A DNA stretch of 64,000 nt from a virus (IMGVR_UViG_3300002124_000001:291-64290), one strand, 5' to 3'. Positions 48,983 through 64,000 are shown, counted from the first letter of the stretch. Notes: generated from the letters alone by a model not told the origin. Numbers and translations: made by a program.

Positions 48983-49680
48983 CAGAGCGTTCCGTTCTTC
49001 GCCTCCGCGCCCAACGTGAACCCATTCGGCCGAGGCTGGAGCGCGAGGGTCCTCGATCGCTGTAGTGGCGATGGCGAGTCAAAGAGCAGTTCTTCAGGCC
49101 ATCCCTTAAGTACTCGCCACCGAAGCGTATGGAGTTTCGTCCCGCTCGATTCTGACCACTCGGCCAATGTCTTCGTAACTCCGCGAATCGTCACCCTGTG
49201 GCTTGACCGCTTGTTGCGCCCCTGCTCCTTTGAAGTCGTCCACCGGCAATTGGAAGGCTCATAATTGCCGCTGTTGTCGATACGCTCAATCTCTAATGAA
49301 CTGTCGAACGTGGGACCCATGTCTTCAGCAAAGGCTTGGAACGACAACCAGCGATCACAGACGGTGATGCCGCGACCTCCGTAGTCTGGATATGATGGGT
49401 GGCTAACGCAAAAACAGCGGCTCTTTATGCCATCCCATCGCTTGTACAGTGACGTGTGTGATGCCCCGTGAGTCGTCGAACGAACGCTGACTAATTCGCG
49501 CTGGAGGCAACCGCAACTTCGAGTCAACCCGCGCACGAGTGATGGTCCGACGATCAGTTTTGTACCACCGCATTCGCAACGGCACCGCCACAGAACATAC
49601 CCATAGGCGGATCTGCCTTCAGCGCAAACCACAACCAACCGCCCGAAGACGCGACCAACTAGGTCCGTATGTGCCATCAC
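48982..49680 (-). CDS. HNH homing endonuclease
   Basis: WRCRCECG...SCGC...YGGRGITVC.RW..F...IERIDNSGNYEPSNCRW. Confidence 0.9.
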   Translation of the reverse strand: MMAHTDLVGRVFGRLVVVCAEGRSAYGYVLWRCRCECGGTKLIVGPSLVRGLTRSCGCLQRELVSVRSTTHGASHTSLYKRWDGIKSRCFCVSHPSYPDYGGRGITVCDRWLSFQAFAEDMGPTFDSSLEIERIDNSGNYEPSNCRWTTSKEQGRNKRSSHRVTIRGVTKTLAEWSESSGTKLHTLRWRVLKGWPEELLFDSPSPLQRSRTLALQPRPNGFTLGAEAKNGTL

Positions 49681-51354
49681 GACACCGTTCCGTTCTTGAC
49701 AGCAACGCCGAATTGAACCCCTGACACGCCTGATTCTGGTAATAACTGCGACTTGCAGTGAGCATCCGCCAGCTTCGTGAACCCGTCGCGATCCCGCACC
49801 GACAGCCAGAACGAGGATTCTTGAGGCTTGGCCTTCGCGGCGAGTGGCCCTTTCTTCTGTGTGGTGAACTCGTCGTCTCTCACGGGTGCCTCCGTCTCGT
49901 GGACGTCGCCAGAGACTCAGATAGCGTTACTTCATACACAACAAAGTGCTCCGCGTTGGCACCATCTACACCTGCCGGATGCCTGACTCGCCACACGCGC
50001 TGCGCCTCTACGGCCTCGTCCCAGATCGCATCGTGTGTTTGTGTGTCCGAAATGACAGCCGGTGTCGGCGGAAACGTCGCGTGATACTCCATGCAGGCGG
50101 CACGAAATGTGTCGGCGTCAGCCCGCTCGGTAAATGCGCGAATGGGATCTGACACCTCGTGGTCAATAGTCGCCATCACAAGAAACACGACTCCCTTCAC
50201 CGCTGCCTCCGTCTCGCCGTCTCCCCCAACCTCACGAGATCCGTCCGCGTCCCTCGCCGCACCGATCCCTCCACCTGTTGAGGATCCGGCGTCTGTCGAT
50301 CCATCTGCCGGAACTTCATCAGCACGTCCTGAAACACATGCGGCGCCAACGAGAGCACGACTTCTCTGGTGATCCCCTCGTGCTGCACCAGGACCGTCAG
50401 TACCGCTCGGCCGTCCAGTTGCTCCTTGAGGACAAGGTGATCCAGGGTGACCTTCATCCTTCCACCTTCGACCTTGTGGCGACGTGCGGTGACTCCAGAG
50501 CGGCATGGATGATCATCTGGGTCTGCACCGTGCATAACTCGCACAACTGGACCCGCCAATGCTGCAACTCGCCGATGTGAATCTCGGCCGTCTTGATCGT
50601 CCACGCTGATTTCACTTCCCGACACCGTTGGCAGATTGCCGTCACGCGACATCCCTTCCGGCCGCGTTCATGCCGCATCTCCAGACGCCCGGCGCTGCTC
50701 CCACAACTTCCATCCACGCGCCTTGACGTACTCCACTCCTGACTGCGTATAGCGCCTCTCCAGTGAACTGTTCACGGTCGGCCAGTCCACAAAGTCTGGC
50801 TCCTCGTCACGTTGGATAGCACGAATGCCCTCCGCGTAGATCGCCGCGATCGTGTCTCGCGTCGAGCCCGTGCGAGCGATTTCAGCCATCAGCCTCTCGG
50901 TGCGCGTCACGCGACATCCCCGGCCGTCGCGCTCAGGGCCTCGATCGCGTGCTTCAACGTGCACTTCTTTGAATGCCCGTGCATCTGTGAGGCGTGACAC
51001 ATCGGGCAGACGTAATACGTCTCAGAGCCTTGCCACTCAATCCGAAGCAACAGCGTCAACATTTCGTCCGGCGTCATGCGTCAACTCCCGCTTGCTTCTT
51101 GAAATCCGCCGCTACCTTCACCGCGACATTCCGCAACGGTGCAAAGGGCTGAGACGTGGGAATCAATTTCGCCACCGGCAACGACGGCTGAGGAATCCAC
51201 GCCTCCGGTGAATCATCCGAATCAGACTGAGGCCACACGCAGACCACTTGCATCGCCTCCCAACAAGAGAGGCAGCGCCAGAATCCCGTCTGCGGGAGCT
51301 TGATCGTGCCTGGCTCGCGACGGCAGGATCCGCAGCGAGGGCCGAGATACTTCG

Positions 51355-52437
51355 TCACGAGGCCACCTTCACCGGATACTTCGCCGGGTTGCGGTTCTTG
51401 GCCTCGCACATTTGCCGGTGAGAGCAGCGATCGACGTGCTGGCAGGACCATGAGGCCATCGGCGCCGGCTTTGTCACCATTGGTGCCCGCGCGCCACCGC
51501 AGTTATCGACGGCGCGGTTTAACCAATTCACGAGAAACTTCTCCATACCTTGGGAGGTTTTTCGGCGGCCGAGATTGGCTAGTACCCACGCCAGTGCGCT
51601 CCTACATTCCTGAGGAACGTCGAGCATCGGATACAACTCGTCCCACGCTTTCACTTGAGCCGATGCCAATGGCCAGATTGGGACGTCTTTGCCAACGATA
51701 GGGAATTCCAGGAACGGCTTCGGCTCGGAGTCGCGCAGCGGCTCCGGGCTCCTCACTTGTTCCCTTTCCAAAACCAATTCCCGTTCCTTTTCCTGTTCCC
51801 CTTCCTTGTCAGGACCCTGTTGACGTGGGTCTGTCACCCCGTTAACGGTGTGTCCGAAGTCTCCAGGCCAGTCGAATCCGACTTCGTCCGGGAGCTTCGC
51901 GCCTTTCTTCGCATTGCACTTCTTGCAAGCCGTCACGAGATTCCGTTCGTCGTGACTGCCGCCCCGCGCCAACGGAATCACGTGATCGATACAGCGCGAC
52001 CGAGCGTCCGTTCCCATGTCTTTTTTGCAGTAGACACATGTGAACGAGTCACGCTGGTAAATGCGCTGTCGAACCGTTTCGTTCGGCGCTCTCCCGAGTT
52101 GGTCGGTCTCTCCGTTTGGACCCTCGATCTGAGACGGAGCCTCGTCGCGGTTCACGAGTTGATGCCTAGCCCACGTTGGAATCGAGATGGCCTTCAATCC
52201 GTTCGTCTGATACCGGACGATTAATCCAGCACGAACGAGTTCGTCGAGGCCCTCATTGACATCGACCTGGTCGTAGGGAAACAACTCGGCCTTGATTCGC
52301 ATCGGCCGGTCTTCGAGTCGACCAGAGCGATCCGCAACCGTCCAGAGGCCTGTGAATAACAGCCGCCACTGGTACGGAAGCGAGCCAACTTGCTCGTTCT
52401 TGAAGAAGTCCGGCTTGATTGTGCGAATTCGGGCCAA
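51355..52437 (-). CDS. replication initiator with in-frame HNH domain
   Basis: ARIRTIKPDFF N-terminus; CVYC...IDHVIPLARGGSHDERNLVTACKKCNAKK; C-terminal KFLVNWLNR. Confidence 0.85.
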   Translation of the reverse strand: MARIRTIKPDFFKNEQVGSLPYQWRLLFTGLWTVADRSGRLEDRPMRIKAELFPYDQVDVNEGLDELVRAGLIVRYQTNGLKAISIPTWARHQLVNRDEAPSQIEGPNGETDQLGRAPNETVRQRIYQRDSFTCVYCKKDMGTDARSRCIDHVIPLARGGSHDERNLVTACKKCNAKKGAKLPDEVGFDWPGDFGHTVNGVTDPRQQGPDKEGEQEKERELVLEREQVRSPEPLRDSEPKPFLEFPIVGKDVPIWPLASAQVKAWDELYPMLDVPQECRSALAWVLANLGRRKTSQGMEKFLVNWLNRAVDNCGGARAPMVTKPAPMASWSCQHVDRCSHRQMCEAKNRNPAKYPVKVAS

Positions 52438-52508
52438 ATGCACCCCACCCTTTCCGGATCCCGATCCGGACGTCCCTGTGTTCCGTGGTGTCGAAAACTA
52501 AACCTGAC

Positions 52509-52949
52509 TTACAGCGTGACTTCGTCCGGATCGTCCGCGAGGTCATCCACTTCACAATCGATCATCTCACCAGGCGCCAGCGCGCGATCTGGAGGCATCT
52601 GCACGTTCATCAACGGCCGCGCCTGCATCTTCTCGACGGCCAGCAAGGCCGCCTCTTTCGTGCACGGCGTGATCGTGTAGATCGACCCTGAGCCGACCAG
52701 TTTCGAAAACCCAGCGACCGCGCCTTCCTTCACCGTCGATCCTGCCGGCGCGTACGTGCCGTCGATGTACTCCGGTCGGACTGTGACGCGCTCTCGCTCG
52801 TCTAGCGCCGGCACGTCGATCCGAAACAGCACGGCCGCGCCGTACGCCTCGGTTGTGACGAAGCCGACGTACCGCTGATGCCCCATCACGTCCACGATCG
52901 CCCAACCTTCAAAGTGCGCTTGCTGCTGTTCTGACATCGACCCCTCCAA
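52509..52949 (-). CDS. conserved phage hypothetical protein
   Basis: FEGWAIVDVMGH...RIDVP. Confidence 0.6.
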   Translation of the reverse strand: MEGSMSEQQQAHFEGWAIVDVMGHQRYVGFVTTEAYGAAVLFRIDVPALDERERVTVRPEYIDGTYAPAGSTVKEGAVAGFSKLVGSGSIYTITPCTKEAALLAVEKMQARPLMNVQMPPDRALAPGEMIDCEVDDLADDPDEVTL

Positions 52950-53128
52950 CTACTTCAAAAACATCACGTCGACCTGCACCATCTGCCAGCCAGGCCAGTC
53001 GATCGGGTGCGATAACTTCACGCCGTCGATCGGTTTAGGCGGAGGATTCAAGCGCGAGAGCATGCGATGAAACGACCGCGTCAGTTCAGCATCGCGCGCC
53101 GGATTCTTCTGCCGCCTGATTCGCTCTC

Positions 53129-53365
53129 TCACCAACGCCGCCGATCGCGTTCCCGAAACCGATCCGACGGCAACATCGCCTCTTGGTCGTCCGCGCGCGT
53201 CCTGCCAGCTTCTCCGTCGCTGTTCCGCGTCCCCTTGCATTTTGGATACGCCTTGCATCCAAAGAACCGCTGCGGTTGCTGGTCAATCTCGTTTGGCCGT
53301 GGCTTCCTTTGGCGCGATACCATCGGACCGCCGCAATCTGGGCACTCGACGCTTTCTGGTTTCAC
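53129..53365 (-). CDS. topoisomerase-type C4 zinc-finger protein
   Basis: CPDCGGPMV...FFGCKAYPKCKGT. Confidence 0.85.
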   Translation of the reverse strand: MKPESVECPDCGGPMVSRQRKPRPNEIDQQPQRFFGCKAYPKCKGTRNSDGEAGRTRADDQEAMLPSDRFRERDRRRW

Positions 53366-53898
53366 ACGAGCACCGCTGTTCTTCTGGGGCGATACTTGCC
53401 GCGCGGACGCTGGTTATTCCGTTGAGTCGACAAGTCGGCCCACCTGACGTTTCCTGGCTCATAGCCCTTGTTGTTGTCGAGTCTGTCGAGCGAGAACGAC
53501 GGCAACGGTTTAGGGCCGACGGCAGCCAGGAACGCCTCAAACGACGAGTCCCATTCAGCGCAAACAGAAATGCCACGATCAAAGTACAAGTGTCGTTTCG
53601 GCCAACTCGGGAGACAGCGCCGCCGCATGGCATTCCATGCGACGTACTCAGCCGACCTCTGGTTATTCGCGGTGTGCCGATGCGTAGCCTTCAGGTGCTT
53701 CTTTGCGATCTCGCGGGAGATCTCTCGCCGCAGGCAGCCGCACGAGCGCGTATCGCCATTCAGAACGTCGGACGCTGCTTTTACGACGACGGACCCACAT
53801 GAACAGAGGCACTTCACCAGCGTCTTCCGATTGGTGTTCACCTCAAGCACCGTGAGACGTCCGAACACATCGCCGCGCGACACCACTAGGCGCCTCAT
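53362..53898 (-). CDS. HNH homing endonuclease
   Basis: CLCSCG...SCGC...SLDRLDNNKGYEPGNVRWA. Confidence 0.9.
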   Translation of the reverse strand: MRRLVVSRGDVFGRLTVLEVNTNRKTLVKCLCSCGSVVVKAASDVLNGDTRSCGCLRREISREIAKKHLKATHRHTANNQRSAEYVAWNAMRRRCLPSWPKRHLYFDRGISVCAEWDSSFEAFLAAVGPKPLPSFSLDRLDNNKGYEPGNVRWADLSTQRNNQRPRGKYRPRRTAVLV

Positions 53899-53932
53899 TT
53901 AGTCCTCCAAGTCGGACAGGTCACGTCAGGCT

Positions 53933-54220
53933 TCATCGCGTCACCCGATACACAGCGCATCCGTCCCGCCGCGTCTCCGTCTTCACGACCCGGCCCTGCT
54001 TCTCGAGCGCATGCACCCGAGCACAGACCGACGCGCGCCCGATCCGCAACGCCGCGCTGATTTCCTTCTGCGTGGCTCCGTAGGCACCACAGCGTTGTAT
54101 CCACTCGTAGACATCCAGCCCCTGAGGACCGACGAACCGCACCGCCTGCAGCGCCGCGTCTCTCGACGTGGAGGAGCCGCTTTGAAACGGCAGCTCGTAG
54201 TTGGCGTCGAGGTACGGCAC
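53933..54220 (-). CDS. winged-helix DNA-binding protein
   Basis: GATQKEISAALRIGRASVCARVHALEKQGRV. Confidence 0.7.
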   Translation of the reverse strand: MPYLDANYELPFQSGSSTSRDAALQAVRFVGPQGLDVYEWIQRCGAYGATQKEISAALRIGRASVCARVHALEKQGRVVKTETRRDGCAVYRVTR

Positions 54221-54223
54221 CGG

Positions 54224-54487
54224 TCAGTCCTTCTCTCGCTCGGCCAACATCGCGTCAGCAACCTGATACAGCCGATGCGCCATGTTCTCGAACTCTTCAA
54301 CACTTGATGGCCGTAGTCCTGGGTCGCCCATGAGTCCGATGAGCGCCTGCCCGGCGAACCAATCCCGGAGCTTCATGCCGCCGAAGCCGTACTCGGAAGC
54401 CGCCACCGCTTCTTTGTAGCCGTCGCGGTCTTCTGAAATCACGAACGGCTCTGGAAACGCTGCGCCACCGTCAGGCTTCGCCATCAC
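54224..54487 (-). CDS. conserved phage hypothetical protein
   Basis: DGGAAFP...GMKLRDWFAGQAL. Confidence 0.7.
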   Translation of the reverse strand: MMAKPDGGAAFPEPFVISEDRDGYKEAVAASEYGFGGMKLRDWFAGQALIGLMGDPGLRPSSVEEFENMAHRLYQVADAMLAEREKD

Positions 54488-55522
54488 CGCTCCTCCTTCG
54501 ACCAGTCGAGCGCCTGCTGCTGCATCACTTCTTTCCGTGCCGGACGCGATACTTCGGAAGTCCAGTCAGGCAGTCCGCGACGGCCTTGCCGTTGACGATG
54601 CACTCGTCGCAGTAGTCGTCGAAGGACTGGCCTTGTTCGTCCTGTTCCTCTGGTCCTTGAGGGTCGAGAACGCGCAACTGAAGTTTGAGGTACCGCTGCT
54701 GCGTAATCAGCTGCTTGCACGCCGAGCAGACACGAGCCATGGTCATGAGCGCTCCTCCGCCGGCACGGCGTCATACGGCACCACCGCCGGGAACATCCCG
54801 GTCTGAAGATCGCGGCGCAACCCATCCACGCGCAGGAGTGCCGCCTGCATCGTCGGAAACTTCGCCAACTCCCCGTCGCTGAGCCGGTAGTACGAATCGC
54901 CGTCCTCGGAGCTGATCCGGATCGCGAAGCCGTTGGGGGAGCGCTTCAGGGCCATCAGAGGTCTCGGCCTTTGAAGTGTTCAGGGTTGCGGGCGAAGAAC
55001 GGCTGCTCGTACATCCAGCCGTCCGAGTAGCACATGAAACGTGACCAGATTCGATTCAGCGGCCCGCCGACTTCACCGAGAAACCGTCCCGCGAAACTGC
55101 TCGGATGAATCTCATCTGGGTCGTTGCGGAACACGCGCTCGGTCGGATACTTCGCGCGGCACAACTCGACAACGGCACGACGCGCGGCATTGAACACTTG
55201 AGGGTCGAGCGCCACGCGCACATCGCTGTCGGTGGGTCGCTCGGGCAACATCGCCTCAATGGCCTGCACGCCCACATCAAGGTTGTCGCGCGAGATGGCC
55301 GCGTTCTCGTTGTCCCACTGCGAGCCGTCCGAGGCGATCCACACCGTCTTTGCCGTCGCCATCAGTCCTCCTGCGCCTCGTCCTTGATCTCTTCGAGCTT
55401 CGCGCGCGTGTAGGACTCATCCCGTTCCGTCAGCACGCCGCCGAGTGTCGCGACGTCCTTGACGATCTCCACCGGCAACTGCACGACGTTGACGACCGTA
55501 CGAACGATCTGCCCGAAGAGTT

Positions 55523-55942
55523 TCATGCGACCGCCTTCTCTGCCCGCAGCCTGAACGGCTCCTTAGATGGCTTCACGAGATTTCGGTTCCACGAAAACCG
55601 ACAGGTCCGAGCGTCAGTCCCGATCACCAGCAGCACGTTGCCGGTCAGGAATTCATGGATGTGCCGAGACACGAGGATGATTCGCTTGGGGTCCGTCACC
55701 CACTCCGGCTTGAGATTCCGCCCCTTGATGTGGTGATGCTCGCGCAGCGTCTTCGGATTACGACTGTTCGGCGTCAGCGTGACGCCGGTCACTTGGCACT
55801 TGTTGTCTTCGCGCGCGTTCACCTTCCGGTACGCCGCCAATAGTTTGGCGTCCGCAGCGCGATCGATCCGGTGCTTGTCTAGCACGCGCGGGACCATTCG
55901 GTCCTTGGCAAACGCGAAGTACGGGAAGTCGAGATTGGCCAA
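55523..55942 (-). CDS. NinG/HNH-like protein
   Basis: RED..CQVTG...HHHIKGR...HIHEF. Confidence 0.5.
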   Translation of the reverse strand: MANLDFPYFAFAKDRMVPRVLDKHRIDRAADAKLLAAYRKVNAREDNKCQVTGVTLTPNSRNPKTLREHHHIKGRNLKPEWVTDPKRIILVSRHIHEFLTGNVLLVIGTDARTCRFSWNRNLVKPSKEPFRLRAEKAVA

Positions 55943-56446
55943 CGCTACGCCTCGCGTCCTTCGGCTTTGGAGGCGATGGCCGCGTTCACGCGAGCCGTGC
56001 GCCCGTTCCGTTCATTAGCCACTGCCACAGCCCCGGCCAATCCGGCTGCTGCGCGGTCCGCCTGACGCACGCTCATCGTGATGCCTTGCCATTCGTCGTC
56101 TTCGATGTTGATGAACTGCTCTCCTGTTTTGCGATGCGTCGTCAAGAGCACGCGCATCCCGTCCGGAAGCTCTGGGCCGATGCGCTCACTTGCCCACTTT
56201 GAGTTATGCCGGACGATGCGCGGTTGACCTGGGACGTGCGTGGCCATATCTACTCGTCCTCATTCCCTGAGACGCTGAGACGCTCCCGCATCGCACCCTT
56301 GGAATAGGAGCGATCTGCAATTGGGATCTCCGCGAGGGTGACGCGTCGATACGTCCGCCCCTCCTGCGCTTCACACCGATCACACACGTCGTCGTCCGTT
56401 TCGGATTGGAACGGTCGATCACAGAAAAAGCAGCGACACGAGAGCA

Positions 56447-56941
56447 TCAGGCGTGCTCCTCTTCCCACTCCGGAACGTCATCCGCCCATGGGTCTTGACC
56501 GTCAGGCGTTCCGCTCTGTCCACCTGAGAGCACCGCTGACGGCGTGTGCTTACCCTCACTGATCCGCTTTGACCAGCCCCTAGCCCTGGCTGCATCCGCG
56601 CGCTTGAACTCAGCGACCGGCTTACCCTTCGGCGTGAGTTCTCCGCTGGCCTCCGCTTTGCCAGCGAAGTAATCGAGCGTCTCGGCCGCCATCTCGAGCA
56701 GTTCCGCCGGGCACTCGGAGAAGCGGTAGCCCTTGAATCGCTGATCGCCGGTCCAATCGCGGGGGAGAAAACGGAGCACTGGGTCTCCCCACTTCCCATC
56801 GAGGTCTCGATCGCTGGCGACGGCCTTCGGCTGCGAGGCACGCACCTTCGCCTCACGCTGCTGCATCACGGCAAGCATCGTCTTCAGCGTGGCGTCGATC
56901 GACTGCAGCACGAGCAGCGCCTGATCGGCCGTGGCAGACAT
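56447..56941 (-). CDS. hypothetical protein with Gly-rich linker and acidic aromatic tail
   Basis: Ends GGQSGTPDGQDPWADDVPEWEEEHA. Confidence 0.6.
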   Translation of the reverse strand: MSATADQALLVLQSIDATLKTMLAVMQQREAKVRASQPKAVASDRDLDGKWGDPVLRFLPRDWTGDQRFKGYRFSECPAELLEMAAETLDYFAGKAEASGELTPKGKPVAEFKRADAARARGWSKRISEGKHTPSAVLSGGQSGTPDGQDPWADDVPEWEEEHA

Positions 56942-57594
56942 TAGACCGACACCACGCTTTCGATCTGATTGCGATTCAGATACCGCTGACGCTTCCTGTC
57001 CCTCTCGCAGGCACGACATGCGCGCTGTCCGCTGGAGTACACCGACACGTTTTCTGGCGTCATCTGATGCAGCTTTTTGCGGCACATCGTGGATACCGGG
57101 ACGACGCGGCGGCGCCGATTCAACGCCTGTTCACGCTTCGTCGCCCACCGGCAATTGTCGGGCTCGTAGTTGCCGTCGTTTTTGATTCGATCTATGGAGT
57201 GTCTCGGCGACGGGCGCCTCCCCATGTCAGCCAGAAAGTTCTCGAACGATGCCCAGCGAGCGCACACCGTAATTCCGCGACCACCATAGTCCTTGTAGCC
57301 TGGCTGGTTGGGGTTGGTGCAGCGAGTCCGCATCTGAGACCATGCGCGCCACTCAGGCGCGATCGCGCCACTCTTCGCCTGTCCGTGAATGAAATTTGCT
57401 GTTCCCTTCATCTCGTCGCGAAGACATCCACACGACGCCGTCTCGCCTCGCTGAACTGACAACGCTCGAATGGGTTTGGTGGTGCCACAGTCGCACTTAC
57501 AGACGAGCCATCGACTTCCGGCGTACCATTCTCCGGACAGAACCAGAAGCCGACCGAAACGCTCCCCAATGGGAATCGTCGCCCGTGGTCTCAT
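56941..57594 (-). CDS. HNH homing endonuclease
   Basis: HSIDRIKNDGNYEPDNCRWAT; C-terminal C..LH...N motif. Confidence 0.9.
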   Translation of the reverse strand: MRPRATIPIGERFGRLLVLSGEWYAGSRWLVCKCDCGTTKPIRALSVQRGETASCGCLRDEMKGTANFIHGQAKSGAIAPEWRAWSQMRTRCTNPNQPGYKDYGGRGITVCARWASFENFLADMGRRPSPRHSIDRIKNDGNYEPDNCRWATKREQALNRRRRVVPVSTMCRKKLHQMTPENVSVYSSGQRACRACERDRKRQRYLNRNQIESVVSV

Positions 57595-58898
57595 GCGGCG
57601 CCCTCCTCGGCGACAGTGCCGTCAACGATCAGGACCGTCATGAGTCCGTCGCCTTTTGCGCCGACGATCCGCTCCAGCCAAATCTGCATGCCTGCCTCTT
57701 CCGCAAACTGCGCCAGAAGCGCGAGATTCGTCTCGTCAAGGTCATTCCCCCCTCTGACAAGGCAAACTTTCAGCTTCGGATTGAGCGCGGCGCCGATCGC
57801 CACGGACACGCGCGTCCGGATGGCCGTGGACGCCTGCTCGAACGGCAGGCCCTGCCACGTCACGCCGTTGTCGTCGAGGCCAAGACCTTCCACTGGGAAC
57901 GTGGCGGAGGTCAGGCGCTCCACCTTCTCGGCGTCGCAGCGCGTGATCATCGCGGTCAGCGCGTCGGCCTTGGCCTGCTGCTCGTCGCGCGAGGTTTCGA
58001 GTTCTGCCCTGGCCTTGTTCTGAGACACCTTCTGATTGCGCGCCTCGATCGTGGAGATCTGCGCACGGAGCGCGGCGCGATCTGGTACGGCTTTCTTGGC
58101 TGCGATGACGGCCGACGCCTTGGCCTTCTCCTCGTCCTCGGACATCGCGAGCGCCATGGACGCCTCTTCAGACTCCGCCTCAGCGGCTTCGAGAGCGGCT
58201 TGCGCCTCCTGAAGGGTCTTCGCTGCGAGCCCCACGCGACGCTCTGCGGCCGTCCTGACTGACCGCGCAGACGAGAGCGCCATGTCCGCCTTGGCCGCGG
58301 CATCAGCGAGTGAGTCGGCATCAGCCAGCGACGTCGAGAGCGCATCGAACGTCTCAACCTCAACCCCCGCGTCTGCATGCTTCGGCGCTTTCTCGATCGC
58401 ACCCTTCAGGCGCGTGACGTCTCGGTTGACGATCGTCCGCTCGTCGAACGCCTCTTTACGCTTCTCTTCGAGGTCGCTGGTATTGATCTTGGCGATTGCC
58501 CTCAACGTCACCGCCTGCTTCGGCGGATCTGCCAGGCTGAACGCCAGCGGGTCAAACGTGAGCTTGCTGTAGAGACCGTTGAGCAGCGCCTGAGGGGAGG
58601 GATACTCCGCCCCGTCCCGGCTGGTGACGGTCAACGCACTCCCACCGGATTGCGTGAACGTACGGGTGACGATCATGTCCCCCAGGTCCACGATGACCTT
58701 GCCCTTCGGCTGCCCTCGACGGACGGGCGCCGGCGGGATCGTCTTCTCTCCACCGAGCGCCATCTCGATCGCGTCGAAGCAGGAGGACTTCCCTGCTTCG
58801 TTCTGGCCGGCCACGATGACGAGCGAGGATCCGTCCGGACGAATCGATACGGCGCTGAGCCTCTGGATGTTTTCGCAGGTGAGCTGGAGGATGTGCAT
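57591..58898 (-). CDS. SMC/Rad50-like AAA ATPase with coiled coil
   Basis: GQNEAGKSS; long coiled coil; LPFEQAS; degenerate Walker B/D-loop VRGGNDLD. Confidence 0.88.
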   Translation of the reverse strand: MHILQLTCENIQRLSAVSIRPDGSSLVIVAGQNEAGKSSCFDAIEMALGGEKTIPPAPVRRGQPKGKVIVDLGDMIVTRTFTQSGGSALTVTSRDGAEYPSPQALLNGLYSKLTFDPLAFSLADPPKQAVTLRAIAKINTSDLEEKRKEAFDERTIVNRDVTRLKGAIEKAPKHADAGVEVETFDALSTSLADADSLADAAAKADMALSSARSVRTAAERRVGLAAKTLQEAQAALEAAEAESEEASMALAMSEDEEKAKASAVIAAKKAVPDRAALRAQISTIEARNQKVSQNKARAELETSRDEQQAKADALTAMITRCDAEKVERLTSATFPVEGLGLDDNGVTWQGLPFEQASTAIRTRVSVAIGAALNPKLKVCLVRGGNDLDETNLALLAQFAEEAGMQIWLERIVGAKGDGLMTVLIVDGTVAEEGAA

Positions 58899-59215
58899 CA
58901 GGCCGCCACCTTCTTTGGGTACCGACGCCGACGCCGGTTGTTAGCTTGTTGCTTCTGTGTTGCCCAACGGACGTTGCCGGGCTCGTAGTTTCCGTTGTTG
59001 TCAGGCCACAGTAGATGTGCACGCGACTGCTCGCGCATGAAGCACCCGCATGACTTCGACCGACCCGTTCGAATGCTGTTCATCAAGACCGTGCGCGCCT
59101 GCCCGCACTCGCAGACAACGTCTGCGCGAGTTGGCCCGCCATCGGTTGGAGAAAAAGAGCGGACGACCGACCAGCGTCCGAATCGTGTGCCAGCCGAACA
59201 GATCAATGCCGGCAT
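58898..59215 (-). pseudogene. internally deleted HNH endonuclease
   Basis: N-terminal CECG/SCGC joined directly to DNNGNYEPGNVRWAT; the middle block present in three paralogues is missing. Confidence 0.75.
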
Positions 59216-60657
59216 TACTCGATTTCCTCCCTCGCGTACAAGCCGTGGATTACGTCCGGGTAGACGAGCCGCGCGAGCTTCGATCCAGCCCTAGCCACAC
59301 AGAGATCGGCTGGGTTACGCCCCCATCCGCTCTTTGCCCATGCTTTGTCGTCGCCCGGGAAAGCGGCTTTGCCCTCATCTATGGTGTAGGTGAGCGTCAT
59401 CGGTGGATCGTCGCCGCGCTGTGTTTCAAATGTAGCCTTCGTGGCCATCCGCTCAGTGCAGCGAAAGTACTTAGCTTTCCCGCTTTGAATCACCAGAGCG
59501 CGAATTACATCAGCCGCAAGGGTTGGCCGGCCTTCGATGATGTGAAAGGCGCGAAGCGACGCCATCGCCTGCATTCCGACTTCGCGTCCAGCCATCAACG
59601 TCGAGAGGATCGCAGCAGCCGTCCCGTACGCCGAGAACAGGCGGCTCGAAAACATGTCCGTCGCAAGCGCCCTGGCGTCGCGCATGCTCCGAGGCTCAAG
59701 CTGCATCTCCCACTCAACCGGCGCTGGCGCGATGGCGTCCGACTCACGCACGGCGATTGCCGTTGCGGGTTCCCCGGCTGGTGATGCCTGTGCTGCAGTG
59801 ACCACAGGGGCGGCTGAGGCTTCAGGCTGGGGTTCGTCGCGATCCTCGACCACGAACTCGGCTTCCTTCGCCACGCGCGTCCCGGCCAATTCGTCGAGCG
59901 GCAGCGGCACATCCGTGCGGAGCGTGATCAGCGATCGGGTCGTCTCGAGTTCCGGCTTGAAGACGCGCAGCGAGGCGGAGATCGCCGGCTTCACGCCCAG
60001 CGCCGCGCCACCAACGTCGCCCAGTTCTTGGTAGAGGTTGTCGAGCGTCTGGAACTTGGCGAGCAGCTCCGCGGCGTTCTTCGGCCCGATGCCTTTGGCG
60101 CCGGCGATGTTGTCCGACGTGTCCCCGACCAAACTTAGGAAGTCGCGCATCTGATCCGGCCTCACACCGAACTTGGCGCCGACACCCTCCGCGTCCAGAA
60201 TCAACCCGTCCGCAGCGCGCTGCATCCGCACCCGTGGCCCAACCAACTGCAGGAGGTCTTTGTCCGCAGAGACGATCAGAACCGTGAGTTCCTTTGGTGA
60301 GTCCGGTCCGGTGATGTGCGCCACCGCCGAGGCGATCAGGTCGTCCGCCTCGAACGTCGGCGCCGACCACACCGGGAACCCGTCGGCTCGAAGCTGCTCC
60401 TTCGCCAGATCAATCTGGTGGTGCAGCGCCGCTTCAGAGGGCGGACGGTTCCCTTTGTACGTGGCCGCGATGTCCTTGCGGAACGAGCGTCCGGCATCGC
60501 AACAGATCGCCACTGAGGGATGCCCATTGGCCAGCGACCGCACCCGCGCGACGATCGCCTGGCTCGGCTTGTTGGGATCTGGGTCCGACTGCGAGACGTG
60601 CCAGATGGGGTACGCCAGGCTGCTTAGGTCCACTAGAACGACTTCATTGACGCTCAT
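59215..60657 (-). CDS. 5'-3' exonuclease (FEN/PolI-type) fused to a RecT-like annealing domain
   Basis: LVDLSS, YKGNR, FEADDLIA, SADKDLLQL, LVGDTSDNIAGAKGIGPK; linker; then SLRAFHIIEGRPTL...TYTIDEGK...ARLVYPDVIHGLY. Confidence 0.8.
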   Translation of the reverse strand: MSVNEVVLVDLSSLAYPIWHVSQSDPDPNKPSQAIVARVRSLANGHPSVAICCDAGRSFRKDIAATYKGNRPPSEAALHHQIDLAKEQLRADGFPVWSAPTFEADDLIASAVAHITGPDSPKELTVLIVSADKDLLQLVGPRVRMQRAADGLILDAEGVGAKFGVRPDQMRDFLSLVGDTSDNIAGAKGIGPKNAAELLAKFQTLDNLYQELGDVGGAALGVKPAISASLRVFKPELETTRSLITLRTDVPLPLDELAGTRVAKEAEFVVEDRDEPQPEASAAPVVTAAQASPAGEPATAIAVRESDAIAPAPVEWEMQLEPRSMRDARALATDMFSSRLFSAYGTAAAILSTLMAGREVGMQAMASLRAFHIIEGRPTLAADVIRALVIQSGKAKYFRCTERMATKATFETQRGDDPPMTLTYTIDEGKAAFPGDDKAWAKSGWGRNPADLCVARAGSKLARLVYPDVIHGLYAREEIE

Positions 60658-61247
60658 GCCACATGCCTCCACTGAATGCCGCGCTTGATGTTGGAGACGG
60701 TGTGGACGGAGCATCCGAATCTTCGAGCCACAGTGACGCCAGATTCACCGGACTGAAGAGCAGACTTGATCTGAGAAACTACGGCTTCGGTGAGCTTCGC
60801 CAGAGGATGCAGGGAACCAACCATCTTCAGGTTGGCGGCTCGCCACGCACCAATATTGAACTTCAGAGGATCGCAGAACGTCCGTTTCCGACGCCCCTTT
60901 TGGATCATGTCGGCGGTGTTGTCAGCGGACGTTCCGAGGAATAAGTGGAACGGACTGACACAGATCGGGTTATCGCAGCGATGGCAGACCAGCAGCCCGT
61001 CTGGAATGAACCGACGCCTGAAGAGCGCCCACGCCACGCGATGCGCTCTGTGCATCTTCCCAGCAGCCTTAAACAGACCGTAGCCGTGCGGATCCTTTGT
61101 GCCGTTCCAGGGCCAACATTGATACGGCCTCTGCGCGAACTTACCCAGAAACCGACTCACATCGGCTACTGACAGCGCCACGCCATTGAGCACGAGACGC
61201 GGACCTGCGCGGTTGCCTTCACTCTGCCCGTTTGCTACGATGTCCAT
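60654..61247 (-). CDS. HNH homing endonuclease with C-terminal HTH
   Basis: CWPWNG...YG...AHRVAW...VCHRCDNPICV.P.HL.LGT..DN. Confidence 0.92.
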   Translation of the reverse strand: MDIVANGQSEGNRAGPRLVLNGVALSVADVSRFLGKFAQRPYQCWPWNGTKDPHGYGLFKAAGKMHRAHRVAWALFRRRFIPDGLLVCHRCDNPICVSPFHLFLGTSADNTADMIQKGRRKRTFCDPLKFNIGAWRAANLKMVGSLHPLAKLTEAVVSQIKSALQSGESGVTVARRFGCSVHTVSNIKRGIQWRHVA

Positions 61248-61270
61248 TACCTAATCGGTCCTTTCATCTG

Positions 61271-61300
61271 GAGCCCGGGTGCAACCGGGCTCTTCGTCTT
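61271..61300. terminator. 8-bp hairpin, terminator-like
   Basis: GAGCCCGG-GTGCAA-CCGGGCTC; T-rich tail on the + strand only. Confidence 0.4.
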
Positions 61301-61768
61301 TCAGCCCTGCCCGATTCCGAACTGCTCCCAGAGCCCTTGCGGTGAGAAGTCGATCCCGCAGCGCGTCATCCCGAACTCACGACACACCGTCTTGTAGTGC
61401 TCGAAGTCAGGATCCGGGAGCTTGGCCGTTGATGCCTGCTCGACCTCGCGCTCGAACTTCACTTCGCCTGTTTCGTGGTCCGCGATCACAAGCCGCTCAC
61501 TCGGCAAGAATTCAGCCTTGAACAACCGGTGTATCTCGTTCAACGTCTGCTGGCTGTAGAGCGCGACCGGACGCACGACGTACCCCCAATATTCACGGTT
61601 GGCTTTCGAGGACCGGCACGCGATCAACCGCTGGACGTCAATCTCCACTTGCTCTCCGTCCTCCAAACGCAGACGACGGAGATGGGCATTGAAGGCCATC
61701 TGGTCCACGAACACGAGACGCTTCAAGTCCTCGTTCCATGAGGCCACGGCGGTCACGTGCGTGCTCAC
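61301..61768 (-). CDS. NinB/Orf-like recombination accessory protein
   Basis: RSSKANREYWG...IHRLFK..FL...STAKL...F..Y. Confidence 0.7.
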   Translation of the reverse strand: MSTHVTAVASWNEDLKRLVFVDQMAFNAHLRRLRLEDGEQVEIDVQRLIACRSSKANREYWGYVVRPVALYSQQTLNEIHRLFKAEFLPSERLVIADHETGEVKFEREVEQASTAKLPDPDFEHYKTVCREFGMTRCGIDFSPQGLWEQFGIGQG

Positions 61769-62067
61769 GCCTGCGTCTCCTGGAGAGGGGCCGGCTCCTG
61801 ACATTCGGCTTTGGCGATCAGTGGACGCGCAGCAATGAACGCGTGTCGTGCGCCAGCCCGTCCAACCTGCGCCGCCTTGCGCACCTTGAACCCCGCCGCC
61901 CTGAGCGCGTCGAGGTCGCGATACACCGTGCGCGGACAGGCCCCGAGGCCCACAGCCAACTCGCGCACGTACGCCTGGCTGAACGGCCGCGTGTGCCCAT
62001 CGACCCGCCGAATCAACCGCGCTAACCGAATCGCGATGCTGTTGCGCCCGTAGCCTGGAGTCGCCAT
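61765..62067 (-). CDS. HTH DNA-binding protein
   Basis: ELAVGLGACPRTVYRDLDALRAAG. Confidence 0.75.
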   Translation of the reverse strand: MATPGYGRNSIAIRLARLIRRVDGHTRPFSQAYVRELAVGLGACPRTVYRDLDALRAAGFKVRKAAQVGRAGARHAFIAARPLIAKAECQEPAPLQETQA

Positions 62068-62333
62068 CTACGTCGTCGCCTCCGCAGCGAACAGCGCCCG
62101 CGCCACGTGATCCGGACGGTGCGCGTCGATCCACGCCAGCGCCTGACGGGACGTCGCTGCCCACATCGCCACCATCACGGCGTCTCCGTAACCCCCTGCG
62201 TCCTTTTTGAGGAACCGCGCGGCAAGATGGCCTTCGGGTATCGCGTCTGACGCGAGGGCGGCCAAGATCGCATCGGCCTCTTCGGGCATCAAGGCGTGGC
62301 TGATCAAGCGAGCGCGGAGGGCGTCGCGGAAGG

Positions 62334-62741
62334 TCACTGCGCCGCCGCCGATCGGATCTCGTAGTGCGCCACGTCGTCAGGAAGGAGAGACGGCCTCAGT
62401 TCAACGACTCTCTTCTTCGCAGGATCGAAGAGCCAGCCTGTGCACGACACCGCGTAGTGCCAATTCGCGCCGCGCCAATGTGGAATCCTCAGGAGCGCCG
62501 GCCGAAGACTGCGCGCGATCCCAGGATTGCGCCCTCCCATCTCGAGACCGTGCGCCGCGAGAAGCCTCCGCATCTCGCCGACGTTCGTGCGATCGTCTTT
62601 GCGGCGTTGCCGTGACGGCGTCAGCCTCACGGTCGGCACCAGGGCCAGCACGCGCGCGACAGGCACGTCAGCCAGCATCGCGACACAGGTCGGCCCGCAA
62701 CTGGTCCGTGACGGCTGACGCTGGTGACGGAGCTTCTTCAC
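62334..62741 (-). CDS. C39-like cysteine peptidase domain protein
   Basis: QRQ...SCGPTCVAML; WHYAV; WLFDP. Confidence 0.7.
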   Translation of the reverse strand: MKKLRHQRQPSRTSCGPTCVAMLADVPVARVLALVPTVRLTPSRQRRKDDRTNVGEMRRLLAAHGLEMGGRNPGIARSLRPALLRIPHWRGANWHYAVSCTGWLFDPAKKRVVELRPSLLPDDVAHYEIRSAAAQ

Positions 62742-63006
62742 TTCGTCTCCGATGTCCCAGTCGACAGCTTGTCGAGGATCGCCATAAAACACGCCGTCCG
62801 TCCCTCCGCCAACGGCAACGTCTCCATCGCCGCGACTTCCTCGGTCGTCATGTAGTTCTCTGGATGCTCACGGAAGTCCTTCTCCCACGTGTCGAACGCT
62901 GCTGTGAATTCCGACTCCATCCAACGCATTTACTTGTCCTTCCAGGTGAACGCCAGAATCCTCGCCCGTTGCTCCTGCTCGAATCGGTGATGCACAGAAT
63001 GTGAAT

Positions 63007-63096
63007 AAGCCATACCTTGCCTCGCCTCGCCATACCATGCCCTGCCGCGCCACGCCTTACCTCGCCTGACCTCACCCTGCCACGCCGTGTCGAGCC
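63007..63096 (-). repeat. array of 18 GGYNN pentamers
   Basis: GGCTC GACAC GGCGT GGCAG GGTGA GGTCA GGCGA GGTAA GGCGT GGCGC GGCAG GGCAT GGTAT GGCGA GGCGA GGCAA GGTAT GGCTT. Confidence 0.9.
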
Positions 63097-63614
63097 TTGT
63101 CCTTCTCTTCCTTCCCGGAGAACGCCAACACATTCGCGACCCGCTCTCTTTCGAATCGGTGATGCACCACCCGGAGGCGCGAGCGGATCGCGTTGGCGGA
63201 GATGTCTCCGAGCTCGGCGCGTTCCAGCCGTCGGTATTCGCGATTCCGCTTCGCGATCTGAAACGGGTGCTGCTCGCTTTCGACCCAGTTCAAAAATCTC
63301 GTCAGCAGTGTCAGCATCAGGCGTTCCAAAACAAGAAGACCAACGAGGCGACCGTGACGCCACACACGAAGCCGAAGCCGACGCCCGTCCGAAATGCATC
63401 AGCGTGTGTGACTCCGCCCGCCATCACCACAACCCCATGACGGCCGCCACGACCAAGCCAACCGAGATGCCCAAGCAGAAGGCCCCGAACGCTTCAGCGT
63501 CCTTCCGTGTCGCAGCCATTCAGCGCCACCAGATCCGTCGAGGCTTCGAGCGCTCCGCCCACAACGCGAGCAGCAGCGCGCCAGCGAGAATGAGTCGACC
63601 GAGGATCTCGTCCA

Positions 63615-64000
63615 TCAGGCCGTCGCCGCCGTCGCAATCGCAGCCTCGATCACCGACCAGGGGATTTGCTTCGCGTCAAATAGGGCGATGAACTGCTCCG
63701 CCCGAGGACGGAGCAACATCGGCACGTCCACCAAATCCCGCGCATCGAAGGCATGCGCCATCGGGCAGTTCGACCACGAGTGACATTCCCAGTGCGTCTC
63801 GAAACTCTCCAGGGACTTTCCGGCGGCCGTCAGCAGCGCTGGGACAGTGACCGCGAAGTACTCCTCCAGCGTCTCGCCAGTGGGCAGGCGGACGTTCTTC
63901 GCCGATCTGAGGTCCGCCGATCTGAGGTCCGCCGATCTGAGGTCCGCCGATCTGAGGTCCGCCGATCTGAGGTCCGCCGATCTGAGGTCCGCCGATCTGA
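63615..64000 (-). CDS. pentapeptide-repeat protein (partial; N-terminus outside the window)
   Basis: Perfect 15-bp tandem GCCGATCTGAGGTCC, about 6.7 copies from 63901, encoding (ADLRS)n; then CHSWSNCPMAHAF domain. Confidence 0.85.
   Translation of the reverse strand, partial: RSADLRSADLRSADLRSADLRSADLRSADLRSAKNVRLPTGETLEEYFAVTVPALLTAAGKSLESFETHWECHSWSNCPMAHAFDARDLVDVPMLLRPRAEQFIALFDAKQIPWSVIEAAIATAATA

What the first reader, a model, noticed from the sequence alone, without database searches (positions are those of the whole stretch)
57591..60657. Single-polypeptide 5'-3' exonuclease + RecT-like annealase, next to an SMC-like ATPase with no SbcD partner
Seen: one uninterrupted 480-codon ORF. 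About 290 aa of FEN/PolI-type exonuclease with intact acidic motifs and H3TH, an Ala/Pro/Glu linker, then about 165 aa with the G...M..L..FHIIEGRP and AR..YPDVI.GLY..EE pattern of RecT/Red-beta-like proteins. Known: Red and RecET use separate exonuclease and annealase proteins that must interact, and their exonucleases are of the lambda-exo or RecE type, not FEN type. Inference: a one-component resection-and-annealing recombinase of possible recombineering value, perhaps working with the ATPase. The annealase call is by eye.
Basis: partly seen in the sequence, partly recalled or inferred. Interest (0 to 1): 0.8.

Follow-up and report, generated by a model that had tools for sequence, protein, structure and literature searches.

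The report
Phage FEN nuclease fused to annealase
A soil phage makes one protein that joins a Pol I-type 5' DNA nuclease to the DNA-annealing core of a RecT/Red-beta recombinase; the layout is common in metagenomes, I found no published description, and it is biochemically untested, so it is a candidate compact genome-engineering tool.

Summary
Window 59215-60657 (-) is one uninterrupted 480-codon gene in a complete 64,290-bp phage genome with direct terminal repeats. Residues 6-255 are a Pol I/FEN 5' nuclease with all catalytic carboxylates. A roughly 65-aa Ala/Pro/Glu linker follows. Residues about 323-480 are a RecT/Red-beta-fold annealase core that ends at the stop codon, with no C-terminal partner-binding domain.

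The annealase call made by eye is now supported by PHROG matches, a profile match to Red-beta, HHalign, and an AF2 model whose best fold matches are Red-beta and RecT. The fusion is no artefact: 119 of the best 120 homologues cover at least 96% of its length, and a second assembly of the stretch is identical.

"One-component" overstates it. Relatives carry a tightly coupled module: SMC-like ATPase, fusion, a small orphan protein with an acidic tail (true SSB in distant relatives), then a NinB/Orf-like protein. This window holds the same four genes, permuted and separated by HNH endonuclease genes.

Relatives of the ATPase sit beside RecE-like exonucleases and RecT-like proteins in cultured phages. 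No SbcD, SSB, lambda-Exo-type nuclease or DNA polymerase I (Pol A) family gene is present.

I found no published description. This scan met the same architecture earlier on other DNA. Function is inferred, not shown.

The parts
59215..60657 (-). FEN::RecT-core fusion gene (480 aa plus stop)
   Evidence: Open frame. Start overlaps the upstream stop as ATGA, with a GGAGG ribosome-binding site. Full-length homologues at 53-63% identity. Identical in a second assembly.
59893..60642 (-). Pol I/FEN-type 5' nuclease domain (residues 6-255 of the 480-aa protein)
   Evidence: PF02739 E 1.5e-26 and PF01367 E 5e-22, both over the curated cut-offs. Aligns to the Taq Pol I 5' nuclease, E 2.8e-27. D10, E103, D105, D106, D132, D134, D179 and D182 are invariant and D54 nearly invariant in 53 homologues.
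59692..59892 (-). Ala/Pro/Glu-rich linker (residues about 256-322)
   Evidence: Composition A16, E8, P8 of 65 residues. The gap between the two domain matches has a median of 64 aa and varies widely in 119 fused representatives. pLDDT is low at the start of the C-terminal model.
59218..59691 (-). RecT/Red-beta-fold annealase core (residues about 323-480) ending at the stop codon
   Evidence: phrog_4171 3.7e-10 and phrog_561 1.3e-08. Profile A1 matches Red-beta 7UJL at E 2.6e-4. 22 of 28 family members match Pfam RecT. AF2 pLDDT 90.7. Foldseek top hits are 7UJL and 7UB2, both probability 1.00. VIA Z 8.1, rmsd 3.8, 134 aa aligned to 7UJL. HHalign 98.5% to Gordonia phage RecT-like gp57.
58898..59215 (-). 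Decayed HNH homing-endonuclease fragment (105 aa) between the fusion and the ATPase
   Evidence: phrog_374 8e-19 in two stretches. Aligns to residues 3-61 and 139-166 of the 217-aa paralogue, so the middle is missing.
57591..58898 (-). SMC/Rad50-like ABC ATPase (435 aa; AAA_23, phrog_1499)
   Evidence: AAA_23 E 5.3e-10 and phrog_1499 E 4.2e-80. Profile matches the Rad50, SMC5/6 and RecF head regions. Walker A is invariant, but Walker B Asp-Glu is replaced by R-[N/D/G]. Homologues sit directly upstream of the fusion in relatives.
56941..57594 (-). Intact HNH endonuclease (217 aa) between the ATPase and the small protein
   Evidence: phrog_374 E 6.4e-59.
56447..56944 (-). Small orphan helical protein (165 aa) with a disordered acidic, aromatic-rich tail; conserved partner gene of the fusion
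   Evidence: 52% identical to the 145-147-aa genes directly downstream of the fusion in L088 and L089. 406 homologues, none with a Pfam domain. No Pfam or PHROG match. AF2 pLDDT 88.9, helical. Conserved W-acidic-G-F type tail in the family alignment.
60654..61247 (-). HNH endonuclease (197 aa, HNH_3 plus HTH) between the NinB-like gene and the fusion
   Evidence: PF13392 E 7.9e-09; phrog_1872 and phrog_59.
61301..61807 (-). NinB/Orf-like recombination mediator (about 168 aa from an internal ATG of the 287-codon ORF 61301-62164)
   Evidence: phrog_72 E 2.2e-07. Homologous to the 158-aa gene two places downstream of the fusion in L088 (E 1.7e-10), which itself matches phrog_72 at 3.6e-17.

Best explanation
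The gene encodes a phage recombinase in which the two activities of a Red/RecET-type system are joined in one chain.

Proposed steps:
1. The N-terminal Pol I/FEN 5' nuclease chews the 5' strand of a DNA end or nick.
2. A flexible linker of about 65 aa tethers a C-terminal RecT/Red-beta-type core, which coats the exposed 3' single strand.
3. That core anneals the strand to complementary single-stranded DNA, such as the other terminal repeat, a sister genome or a replication fork.
4. The covalent link stands in for the C-terminal domain through which free RecT and Red-beta hold their exonuclease. That domain is absent here.

The fusion works within a conserved module: an SMC/Rad50-like ATPase (probably a DNA-end binder or tether), a small acidic-tail protein in the position that SSB holds in distant relatives, and a NinB/Orf-like mediator.

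Shown: the open frame, both domain identities, intact nuclease residues, the fold, family-wide conservation of the fusion, and the synteny. Inferred: nuclease polarity and substrate, annealing, the hand-off in cis, and the roles of the partners.
For: The FEN domain is complete.
- Both Pfam domains score over their cut-offs.
- It aligns to the Taq 5' nuclease.
- The acidic residues are invariant in 53 homologues.

The C-terminal domain is an annealase core.
- It matches PHROG RecT-like families.
- Its family profile matches Red-beta, and 22 of 28 relatives match Pfam RecT.
- The best fold matches are Red-beta and RecT, followed by RAD52, Sak and Mgm101.
- HHalign gives 98.5% to the RecT-like gp57 of Gordonia phage TillyBobJoe, which follows a RecE-like exonuclease.
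- A stand-alone relative in Thermobifida phage P1312 follows an exonuclease VIII gene.

The fusion is conserved.
- 119 of the best 120 homologues cover at least 96% of the query.
- 119 of the 150 best representatives of the C-terminal domain carry the FEN domain.
- The core ends a median of 3 residues before the stop codon.
- A split form, a FEN gene followed by a RecT-like gene, exists in L249.

The module is conserved.
- ATPase, fusion, small protein and NinB-like gene follow one another with overlapping stops and starts in L088, L089 and a JGI contig.
- The same four genes are in this window.

The ATPase family is linked to recombination modules.
- Its relatives sit beside an exonuclease and a RecT-like gene in Arthrobacter phage Sonali and Gordonia phage TillyBobJoe, and near a RecT-family annealase in Caulobacter phage Sansa.
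- The commonest downstream PHROG families in 79 viral loci are recombination exonucleases and RecT-like proteins.

The phage has no other candidate exonuclease or annealase partner, and no Pol A-family polymerase that a FEN could serve. It has terminal repeats and many HNH endonucleases, both of which create substrates for annealing repair. T7 gene 6 exonuclease is a precedent for a FEN-family nuclease proposed to act in recombination (PMC4124056).
Against: - No biochemistry exists for any member of this family.
- Pfam's RecT model does not match this protein itself, even at E 10.
- Sequence identity to solved annealases is only 10-16%.
- Pol I-type 5' nucleases prefer flaps and nicks, so long-range resection of duplex ends is not guaranteed.
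- C-terminally truncated Red-beta anneals but does not recombine (abstract of PMC5052646). A core without that domain may therefore need partners.
- Among 19 full-length fusion loci in IMG/VR, only 1 has the ATPase within 7 kb, so the ATPase is not obligatory.
- The ATPase lacks a canonical Walker B Asp-Glu.
Confidence: 0.65

Rival explanations
1. The annealase core does the recombination. The FEN domain is not the resection nuclease. It trims 5' flaps, or removes displaced 5' ends and RNA primers, at the joints the annealase makes. It would then be a post-annealing processing enzyme held at the site, while host nucleases or another route supply the single strand.
For: The domain is of Pol I/FEN type, a family whose best-known reaction is structure-specific 5' flap cleavage (established knowledge). 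T7 gene 6 protein has both activities (PMC4124056). Annealing at forks or between repeats leaves flaps that must be removed.
Against: The phage has no other exonuclease of a type known to feed an annealase. In stand-alone relatives the same annealase subfamily sits directly after RecE/exoVIII-type resection nucleases, so the FEN domain occupies the resection partner's place.
Confidence: 0.2
2. The protein is mainly a replication or DNA-degradation nuclease, comparable to T5 D15 or T7 gp6 in primer removal or host DNA breakdown. The RecT-like part would serve only as a single-strand-binding or oligomerising anchor, with no recombination role.
For: FEN-family phage nucleases have such roles (PMC4124056). 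This protein falls below Pfam's RecT model.
Against: No Pol A-family polymerase gene was found in the phage. The gene sits with a NinB/Orf-like mediator and an ATPase family that accompanies exonuclease and RecT modules. The C-terminal fold matches whole annealase cores, not a generic single-strand binder.
Confidence: 0.08
3. This rival concerns the ATPase only. The SMC-like ATPase would be unrelated to the recombinase, for example part of a defence or counter-defence system like the ABC ATPases of retron, PARIS or Gabija-type systems, and merely lies nearby.
For: The profile also touches the retron PtuA ATPase heads. Only 1 of 19 IMG/VR fusion loci carries the ATPase. Walker B is atypical.
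Against: Stop and start overlap between the ATPase and fusion genes in three independent contigs. The two stay linked in this window despite a changed gene order. There is synteny with exonuclease and RecT genes in cultured phages, and exonuclease and RecT families dominate the downstream genes in 79 loci.
Confidence: 0.25
4. The fusion is an assembly or sequencing artefact, with a missed stop or frameshift between two genes.
For: A split form exists on one short contig, L249.
Against: Well over a hundred full-length homologues come from many samples and sources, and 19 full-length loci are in IMG/VR. A second assembly at depth 156 is identical.
Confidence: 0.01

Closest known systems
Lambda Red (Exo + Beta) and Rac RecE/RecT two-component recombinases
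   Same: A 5'-3' nuclease is paired with a RecT/Red-beta-fold annealase in one operon. An Orf/NinB-type mediator lies nearby, as in lambda.
   Different: The nuclease is Pol I/FEN type, not PD-(D/E)XK. The two activities are covalently joined. The annealase lacks the C-terminal domain that binds the exonuclease. An SMC-like ATPase and an orphan acidic-tail protein belong to the module.
T7 gene 6 exonuclease with gp2.5
   Same: A FEN-family 5'-3' duplex exonuclease is proposed to act in recombination in a phage with terminal repeats (PMC4124056; the gp2.5 annealing role is from my own knowledge).
   Different: In T7 these are separate proteins. The annealing partner there is an OB-fold SSB-like protein, not a RecT/Red-beta fold.
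Actinophage ATPase / RecE-like exonuclease / RecT-like modules (Gordonia phage TillyBobJoe gp53/56/57; Arthrobacter phage Sonali gp43/46/47/48)
   Same: The ATPases are homologous (37-39% identity). The RecT-like subfamily is homologous (HHalign 98.5%). The operon logic is the same, with SSB following in Sonali.
   Different: There the exonuclease is a separate RecE-like protein. The RecT-like protein has about 125 further C-terminal residues.
SbcC/Rad50 (for the ATPase)
   Same: N-terminal Walker A head of the AAA_23 type with a long helical insertion. The profile matches Rad50, SMC5/6 and RecF heads.
   Different: It has only 435 aa and no CxxC zinc hook in the sequence. There is no Mre11/SbcD partner in the genome. 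Walker B Asp-Glu is replaced.

Membership tests
Pol I / FEN 5' nuclease (PF02739 + PF01367) | Both Pfam domains score above their curated cut-offs | tested here: met
   93.5 bits against a cut-off of 34.3, and 78.6 against 40. 96.7 bits in the whole-genome search.
Pol I / FEN 5' nuclease (PF02739 + PF01367) | Conserved metal-binding carboxylates | tested here: met
   They align with the Taq 5' nuclease motifs LVDG, DA, EADD, DKD and GDxSDN. D10, E103, D105, D106, D132, D134, D179 and D182 are invariant in 53 homologues, and D54 is nearly so.
Pol I / FEN 5' nuclease (PF02739 + PF01367) | H3TH DNA-binding motif | tested here: met
   PF01367 matches positions 1-85 of 97. G186 and G191 of GAKGIGPK are invariant.
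Pol I / FEN 5' nuclease (PF02739 + PF01367) | 5'-3' exonuclease or flap endonuclease activity | not testable with these tools
   Needs enzyme assays.
RecT/Red-beta annealase superfamily | Match to the Pfam RecT model (PF03837) | tested here: not met
   No match for this protein, nor in the genome at E 10. 22 of 28 close family members do match at E up to 1, best 6.5e-09, and some full-length homologues carry precomputed PF03837 hits.
RecT/Red-beta annealase superfamily | Profile-level sequence relation to characterised or annotated members | tested here: met
   phrog_4171 and phrog_561. Family profile against Red-beta 7UJL, E 2.6e-4. HHalign 98.5%, E 3.4e-15, to Gordonia phage RecT-like gp57.
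RecT/Red-beta annealase superfamily | Fold of the DNA-binding core | tested here: met
   Model pLDDT 90.7. Foldseek ranks 1 and 2 are 7UJL and 7UB2, probability 1.00. VIA Z 8.1, rmsd 3.8, 134 of 161 residues of 7UJL aligned.
RecT/Red-beta annealase superfamily | C-terminal domain that binds the partner exonuclease or SSB | tested here: not met
   The core aligned to Red-beta 3-169 ends 8 residues before the stop. The median is 3 residues after the core in 119 fused representatives.
RecT/Red-beta annealase superfamily | Single-strand annealing activity and oligomeric filaments or rings on DNA | not testable with these tools
   Needs biochemistry or cryo-EM.
Two-component exonuclease-annealase recombinases (Red, RecET) | Separate PD-(D/E)XK exonuclease (lambda Exo/YqaJ or RecE type) | tested here: not met
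   No YqaJ match in the genome. The only nuclease partner is the fused FEN domain.
SbcC/Rad50 (ATPase neighbour) | Walker A head of SMC/Rad50 type | tested here: met
   GxNxxGKS is invariant. AAA_23. Rad50 and SMC heads by profile.
SbcC/Rad50 (ATPase neighbour) | Walker B Asp-Glu | tested here: not met
   After the four hydrophobic residues stands R (44 of 49), then N, D or G.
SbcC/Rad50 (ATPase neighbour) | Mre11/SbcD phosphoesterase partner | tested here: not met
   No Metallophos match in the complete phage genome, while the control rang in 14 of 14 genomes.
SSB (small downstream protein) | OB-fold SSB domain (PF00436) | tested here: not met
   No Pfam or PHROG match. The model is helical. 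No PF00436 match anywhere in the genome. The gene in the same position in distant relatives L019 and L020 is true SSB, about 1e-30.
NinB/Orf recombination mediator | Match to family profiles | tested here: inconclusive
   phrog_72 at 2.2e-07 for the window protein and 3.6e-17 for its homologue in L088. Pfam NinB gives only 0.046 in L088 and nothing in the window.

The most novel reading that the evidence does not exclude
The four genes would form a self-contained recombination machine of a kind not yet described.
- A FEN::RecT-core fusion does resection and annealing in cis, without the usual C-terminal docking domain.
- An orphan helical protein with an SSB-like acidic tail replaces SSB, either as the single-strand handler or as a decoy or adaptor for host SSB-binding factors.
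- An SMC-like ATPase with a non-canonical Walker B holds the DNA ends.

Because its partners travel with it, the module could work across hosts and give a compact, portable recombineering system.
Probability: 0.3. Interest if true: 0.8.

Novelty: new variant of a known kind. Interest (0 to 1): 0.6.

Why it matters
Phage exonuclease-annealase pairs are the basis of recombineering. Their use in new hosts is limited by specific protein contacts: exonuclease with annealase, and annealase with host SSB.

A natural, widespread family solves the first contact by covalent fusion. It uses a different nuclease family and carries its own SSB-position protein. It would show which contacts are really needed, and it offers a compact candidate tool.

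It also extends the known partners of RecT-fold annealases to FEN nucleases. It points to an abundant, unstudied viral SMC-like ATPase family as a general accessory of phage annealing recombination.

Tried and rejected
- Complex prediction of the fusion (A2) with the small protein (A3): no answer, score 0.07 against a mark of 0.32. This is no evidence either way.
- The scan of genome contigs with A2 returned only cellular Pol I 5' nuclease domains, so it named no host.
- No RNA holder was listed among the sequencing runs. The only DNA holder may be the source sample.
- A single-sequence search of the C-terminal domain against PDB sequences found nothing real. The family profile was needed.
- Megablast of 52000-64000 against cultured phages gave no match. 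No cultured phage record covers 80% of the fusion.
- Salinibacter phages hold the RecT-like domain and a FEN domain, but not side by side.
- The RecT-family protein of Caulobacter phage Sansa shows no similarity to this subfamily by HHalign.
- Fold searches for the small protein found no clear relative. Foldseek gave nothing at E <= 0.001. The wide VIA search peaked at Z 5.8, on generic helical hairpins.
- A pattern search for SSB-like C-terminal tails in window ORFs printed nothing, because this phage's tail carries extra residues after DDVPEW.
- Literature searches for a described FEN-RecT fusion found none (PMC2896510 read). The Iyer, Koonin and Aravind 2002 classification paper is not held, so a prior mention there cannot be excluded.


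Full report
**The observation**

The window is bases 291-64290 of a 64,290-bp IMG/VR virus record with direct terminal repeats, rated complete. On the minus strand, 59215-60714 is an open frame of 499 codons.

The ATG at 60657 gives 480 aa. It overlaps the stop of the upstream gene as ATGA and has GGAGG 8 nt upstream.

A Logan contig of a soil metagenome run, probably the source sample but a separate assembly, is identical over 59100-60800 at depth 156, with no indel.

**The N-terminal domain**

Pfam finds 5_3_exonuc_N (E 1.5e-26) and 5_3_exonuc (E 5e-22), both well over their cut-offs. The closest solved sequences are the 5' nuclease of Taq polymerase (E 2.8e-27) and E. coli Xni.

The metal-binding acids align with the LVDG, DA, EADD, DKD and GDxSDN motifs of Taq. 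In an alignment of 53 full-length homologues, D10, E103, D105, D106, D132, D134, D179 and D182 are invariant and D54 nearly so. So are K68 and R71, and the glycines of the H3TH motif. The nuclease looks active. It is the only such gene in the phage.

**The C-terminal domain**

Pfam is silent for this protein (also in the genome at E 10). Four independent lines still place it in the RecT/Red-beta superfamily.
1. PHROG families named 'RecT-like ssDNA annealing protein' match residues 342-499 of the 499-aa frame (3.7e-10 and 1.3e-08).
2. Of 28 family members aligned in A1, 22 match Pfam RecT, best 6.5e-09. The profile of A1 finds the Red-beta N-terminal domain 7UJL among all PDB sequences (E 2.6e-4). 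It aligns the W..P..ML...A....ARL...G.Y..E segment, with R in LARL opposite Red-beta R161.
3. An AF2 model (pLDDT 90.7) has 7UJL and the Listeria phage RecT 7UB2 as its first and second Foldseek matches, both at probability 1.00. VIA-align gives Z 8.1, rmsd 3.8, over 134 residues of 7UJL. That stands above a field of RAD52, Sak, Mgm101, RecT and look-alike dsRBD hits at Z 5-6.6.
4. HHalign of A1 against gp57 of Gordonia phage TillyBobJoe, annotated RecT-like, gives 98.5% and E 3.4e-15.

Cultured-phage relatives at 25-34% identity are mostly annotated RecT-like. Where I looked, they follow a RecE/exonuclease VIII-type gene: Thermobifida P1312, Arthrobacter phage Sonali and TillyBobJoe.

The core ends at the stop codon. 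The part aligned to Red-beta 3-169 leaves 8 residues. Across 119 fused representatives the median is 3 residues after the core. The C-terminal domain of free RecT and Red-beta is therefore absent. TillyBobJoe gp57 has about 125 residues beyond the aligned core.

**The fusion is a family, not an accident**

- A search of 5.8 billion proteins gave 1,436 hits. Of the best 120, 119 cover at least 96% of the query at 51-63% identity (the exception, P0055, has a 36%-coverage local alignment). They come from JGI, ENA, Logan and NCBI sources, often on 38-56-kb contigs.
- The C-terminal domain alone has 11,408 cluster representatives at E <= 0.001. Of the best 150, 119 also carry the FEN domain and 31 do not.
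- IMG/VR yielded 19 loci with the whole fusion, down to 31% identity.
- The linker varies, with a median of 64 aa.
- One short NCBI contig (L249) has a FEN gene ending 20 nt before a separate RecT-like gene. That is either a split form or a frameshift.

**The surroundings**

In three independent relatives, the genes follow each other with overlapping stops and starts. These are L088 (a 56-kb NCBI contig that also has an integrase), a 40-kb JGI contig, and L089 (soil). The order is:
- AAA_23 ATPase (433-435 aa);
- fusion;
- a 145-148-aa protein without any Pfam family;
- then further small genes.

The second downstream gene of L088 is NinB/Orf-like (phrog_72, 3.6e-17).

The window has all four genes. 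The small protein is at 56447-56944 and is 52% identical to those of L088 and L089. The NinB-like gene is at 61301-61807 (E 1.7e-10 to the L088 gene; phrog_72 at 2.2e-07).

The order here is NinB-like, fusion, ATPase, small protein. An HNH endonuclease gene or fragment sits at each of the three junctions, and every junction overlaps as ATGA, TAATG or TGATG. Linkage that survives rearrangement argues that the four genes work together.

**The ATPase**

It matches AAA_23 and, over its full length, phrog_1499 of unknown function. By profile it matches the Walker A heads of Rad50, SMC5/6, RecF and retron PtuA. It belongs to large viral clusters of 420-450-aa proteins.
- Walker A is invariant. Where Walker B Asp-Glu should stand, the family has R followed by N, D or G.
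- There is no CxxC hook in the sequence.
- The phage has no Metallophos gene.

Its tie to recombination rests on context.
- The coupled gene pairs described above.
- At least 11 of the closest ATPase homologues share a contig length with a fusion homologue (a proxy, verified for three).
- Homologues in Sonali, TillyBobJoe and Caulobacter phage Sansa lie two to three genes upstream of an exonuclease and/or a RecT-type gene.
- In 79 IMG/VR loci, I scanned the two largest ORFs within 3 kb downstream of the ATPase. The commonest PHROG families were RecE-like exonuclease (12), exonuclease VIII (7), exonuclease phrog_149 (7) and RecT-like (6).

It is not obligatory for the fusion. Only 1 of the 19 IMG/VR fusion loci has it.

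**The small protein**

It has 406 homologues, none with a Pfam domain or a name. The model is confident and helical (pLDDT 88.9) with a disordered tail. No clear fold relative was found.

The family tail has a conserved Trp followed by acidic residues. It often ends in Gly-Phe or Asp-Val-Pro-Phe-like sequences, which recalls the SSB C-terminal tail. In distant fusion loci (L019, L020), the gene in this position is a true SSB ending in DDLPF or DDIPF. This phage has no SSB.

An earlier follow-up note of this scan (e1-3260816) reported a small protein with an SSB-like tail next to such a fusion on other DNA. I confirmed the pattern independently here.

**The phage**

It is siphovirus-like, with terminase, portal, protease, major head and tape-measure genes. 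It also has DNA methyltransferases, an RtcB ligase and at least six HNH genes.

None of the following were found: DNA polymerase A family, YqaJ/lambda-Exo family, SSB, or tyrosine integrase.

A FEN that serves a phage polymerase is therefore unlikely. Terminal repeats and homing-endonuclease breaks are ready substrates for resection and annealing.

**Mechanism**

Most likely (about 0.65), the FEN domain removes the 5' strand at an end or nick. The tethered core then coats the 3' strand as it emerges and anneals it to a complementary single strand. The covalent link replaces the missing docking domain.

The ATPase probably binds or bridges ends. The small protein takes the place of SSB, or connects to host SSB clients. 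The NinB-like protein mediates loading. All of this is inference from homology and context.

The main rival (about 0.2) keeps the annealase but makes the FEN a flap trimmer acting after annealing. The abstract of PMC5052646 states that Red-beta without its C-terminal domain still anneals but cannot recombine. That is a caution against calling the fusion self-sufficient.

**Comparison and novelty**

It works like Red/RecET but fails two defining features of that kind: a separate PD-(D/E)XK exonuclease, and the annealase docking domain.

I found no paper describing a natural FEN-RecT fusion. The library is incomplete and the 2002 classification paper is not held.

This scan noted the same architecture on three other genomes, and two follow-ups reached a similar verdict.

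I rate it a new variant of a known kind: well supported as an architecture, untested as a function.

Noticed in passing
window 48982-61247: At least six HNH endonuclease genes or fragments are scattered through the early region: 48982-49680, 51355-52443, 53362-53898, 56941-57594, 58898-59215 and 60654-61247. Three of them sit exactly at the junctions of the recombination genes. The 105-aa copy is a paralogue that has lost residues about 62-138.
   Followed up: partly
window 56447-62164 compared with L088, L089: The gene order of the module is permuted relative to relatives. Here it is NinB-like, fusion, ATPase, small protein. There it is ATPase, fusion, small protein, NinB-like. HNH genes lie at the breakpoints, which suggests rearrangement driven by homing endonucleases.
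   Followed up: partly
window 57591-58898: The ATPase family has R-[N/D/G] where Walker B Asp-Glu is expected. This phage's copy also has Val at position 425, where 46 of 49 homologues have Glu in a conserved I-E-D-G motif.
   Followed up: partly
window 61808-62164: The first 119 codons of the 287-codon ORF are Arg/Gly-rich and have no homologue. The NinB-like gene probably starts at the internal ATG at 61807.
   Followed up: partly
window 56419-57085: Two overlapping frames are open here. The frame with homologues starts at the ATG at 56944. The 145-aa frame at 56419-56856 is Arg/Ser-rich and matches nothing.
   Followed up: yes
L086 (Gordonia phage TillyBobJoe gene 53) and several Arthrobacter phages: Homologues of the ATPase are annotated 'MRE11 double-strand break endo/exonuclease' in GenBank records. 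They are Walker A ATPases, not phosphoesterases, so this is probably a propagated misannotation.
   Followed up: no
L003 (Thermobifida phage P1312 gene 078); L085 (Arthrobacter phage Sonali gene 47): Genes annotated as hypothetical proteins, lying directly after an exonuclease gene, belong to this RecT-like subfamily.
   Followed up: partly
window 41039-42433: An RtcB-type RNA ligase gene (phrog_1075, 2e-67) is present in a phage for which ARAGORN finds no tRNA gene.
   Followed up: no
L249: A 1.5-kb NCBI contig has a FEN gene ending 20 nt before a separate 235-aa RecT-like gene. It is either a split version of the fusion or a frameshifted copy.
   Followed up: partly
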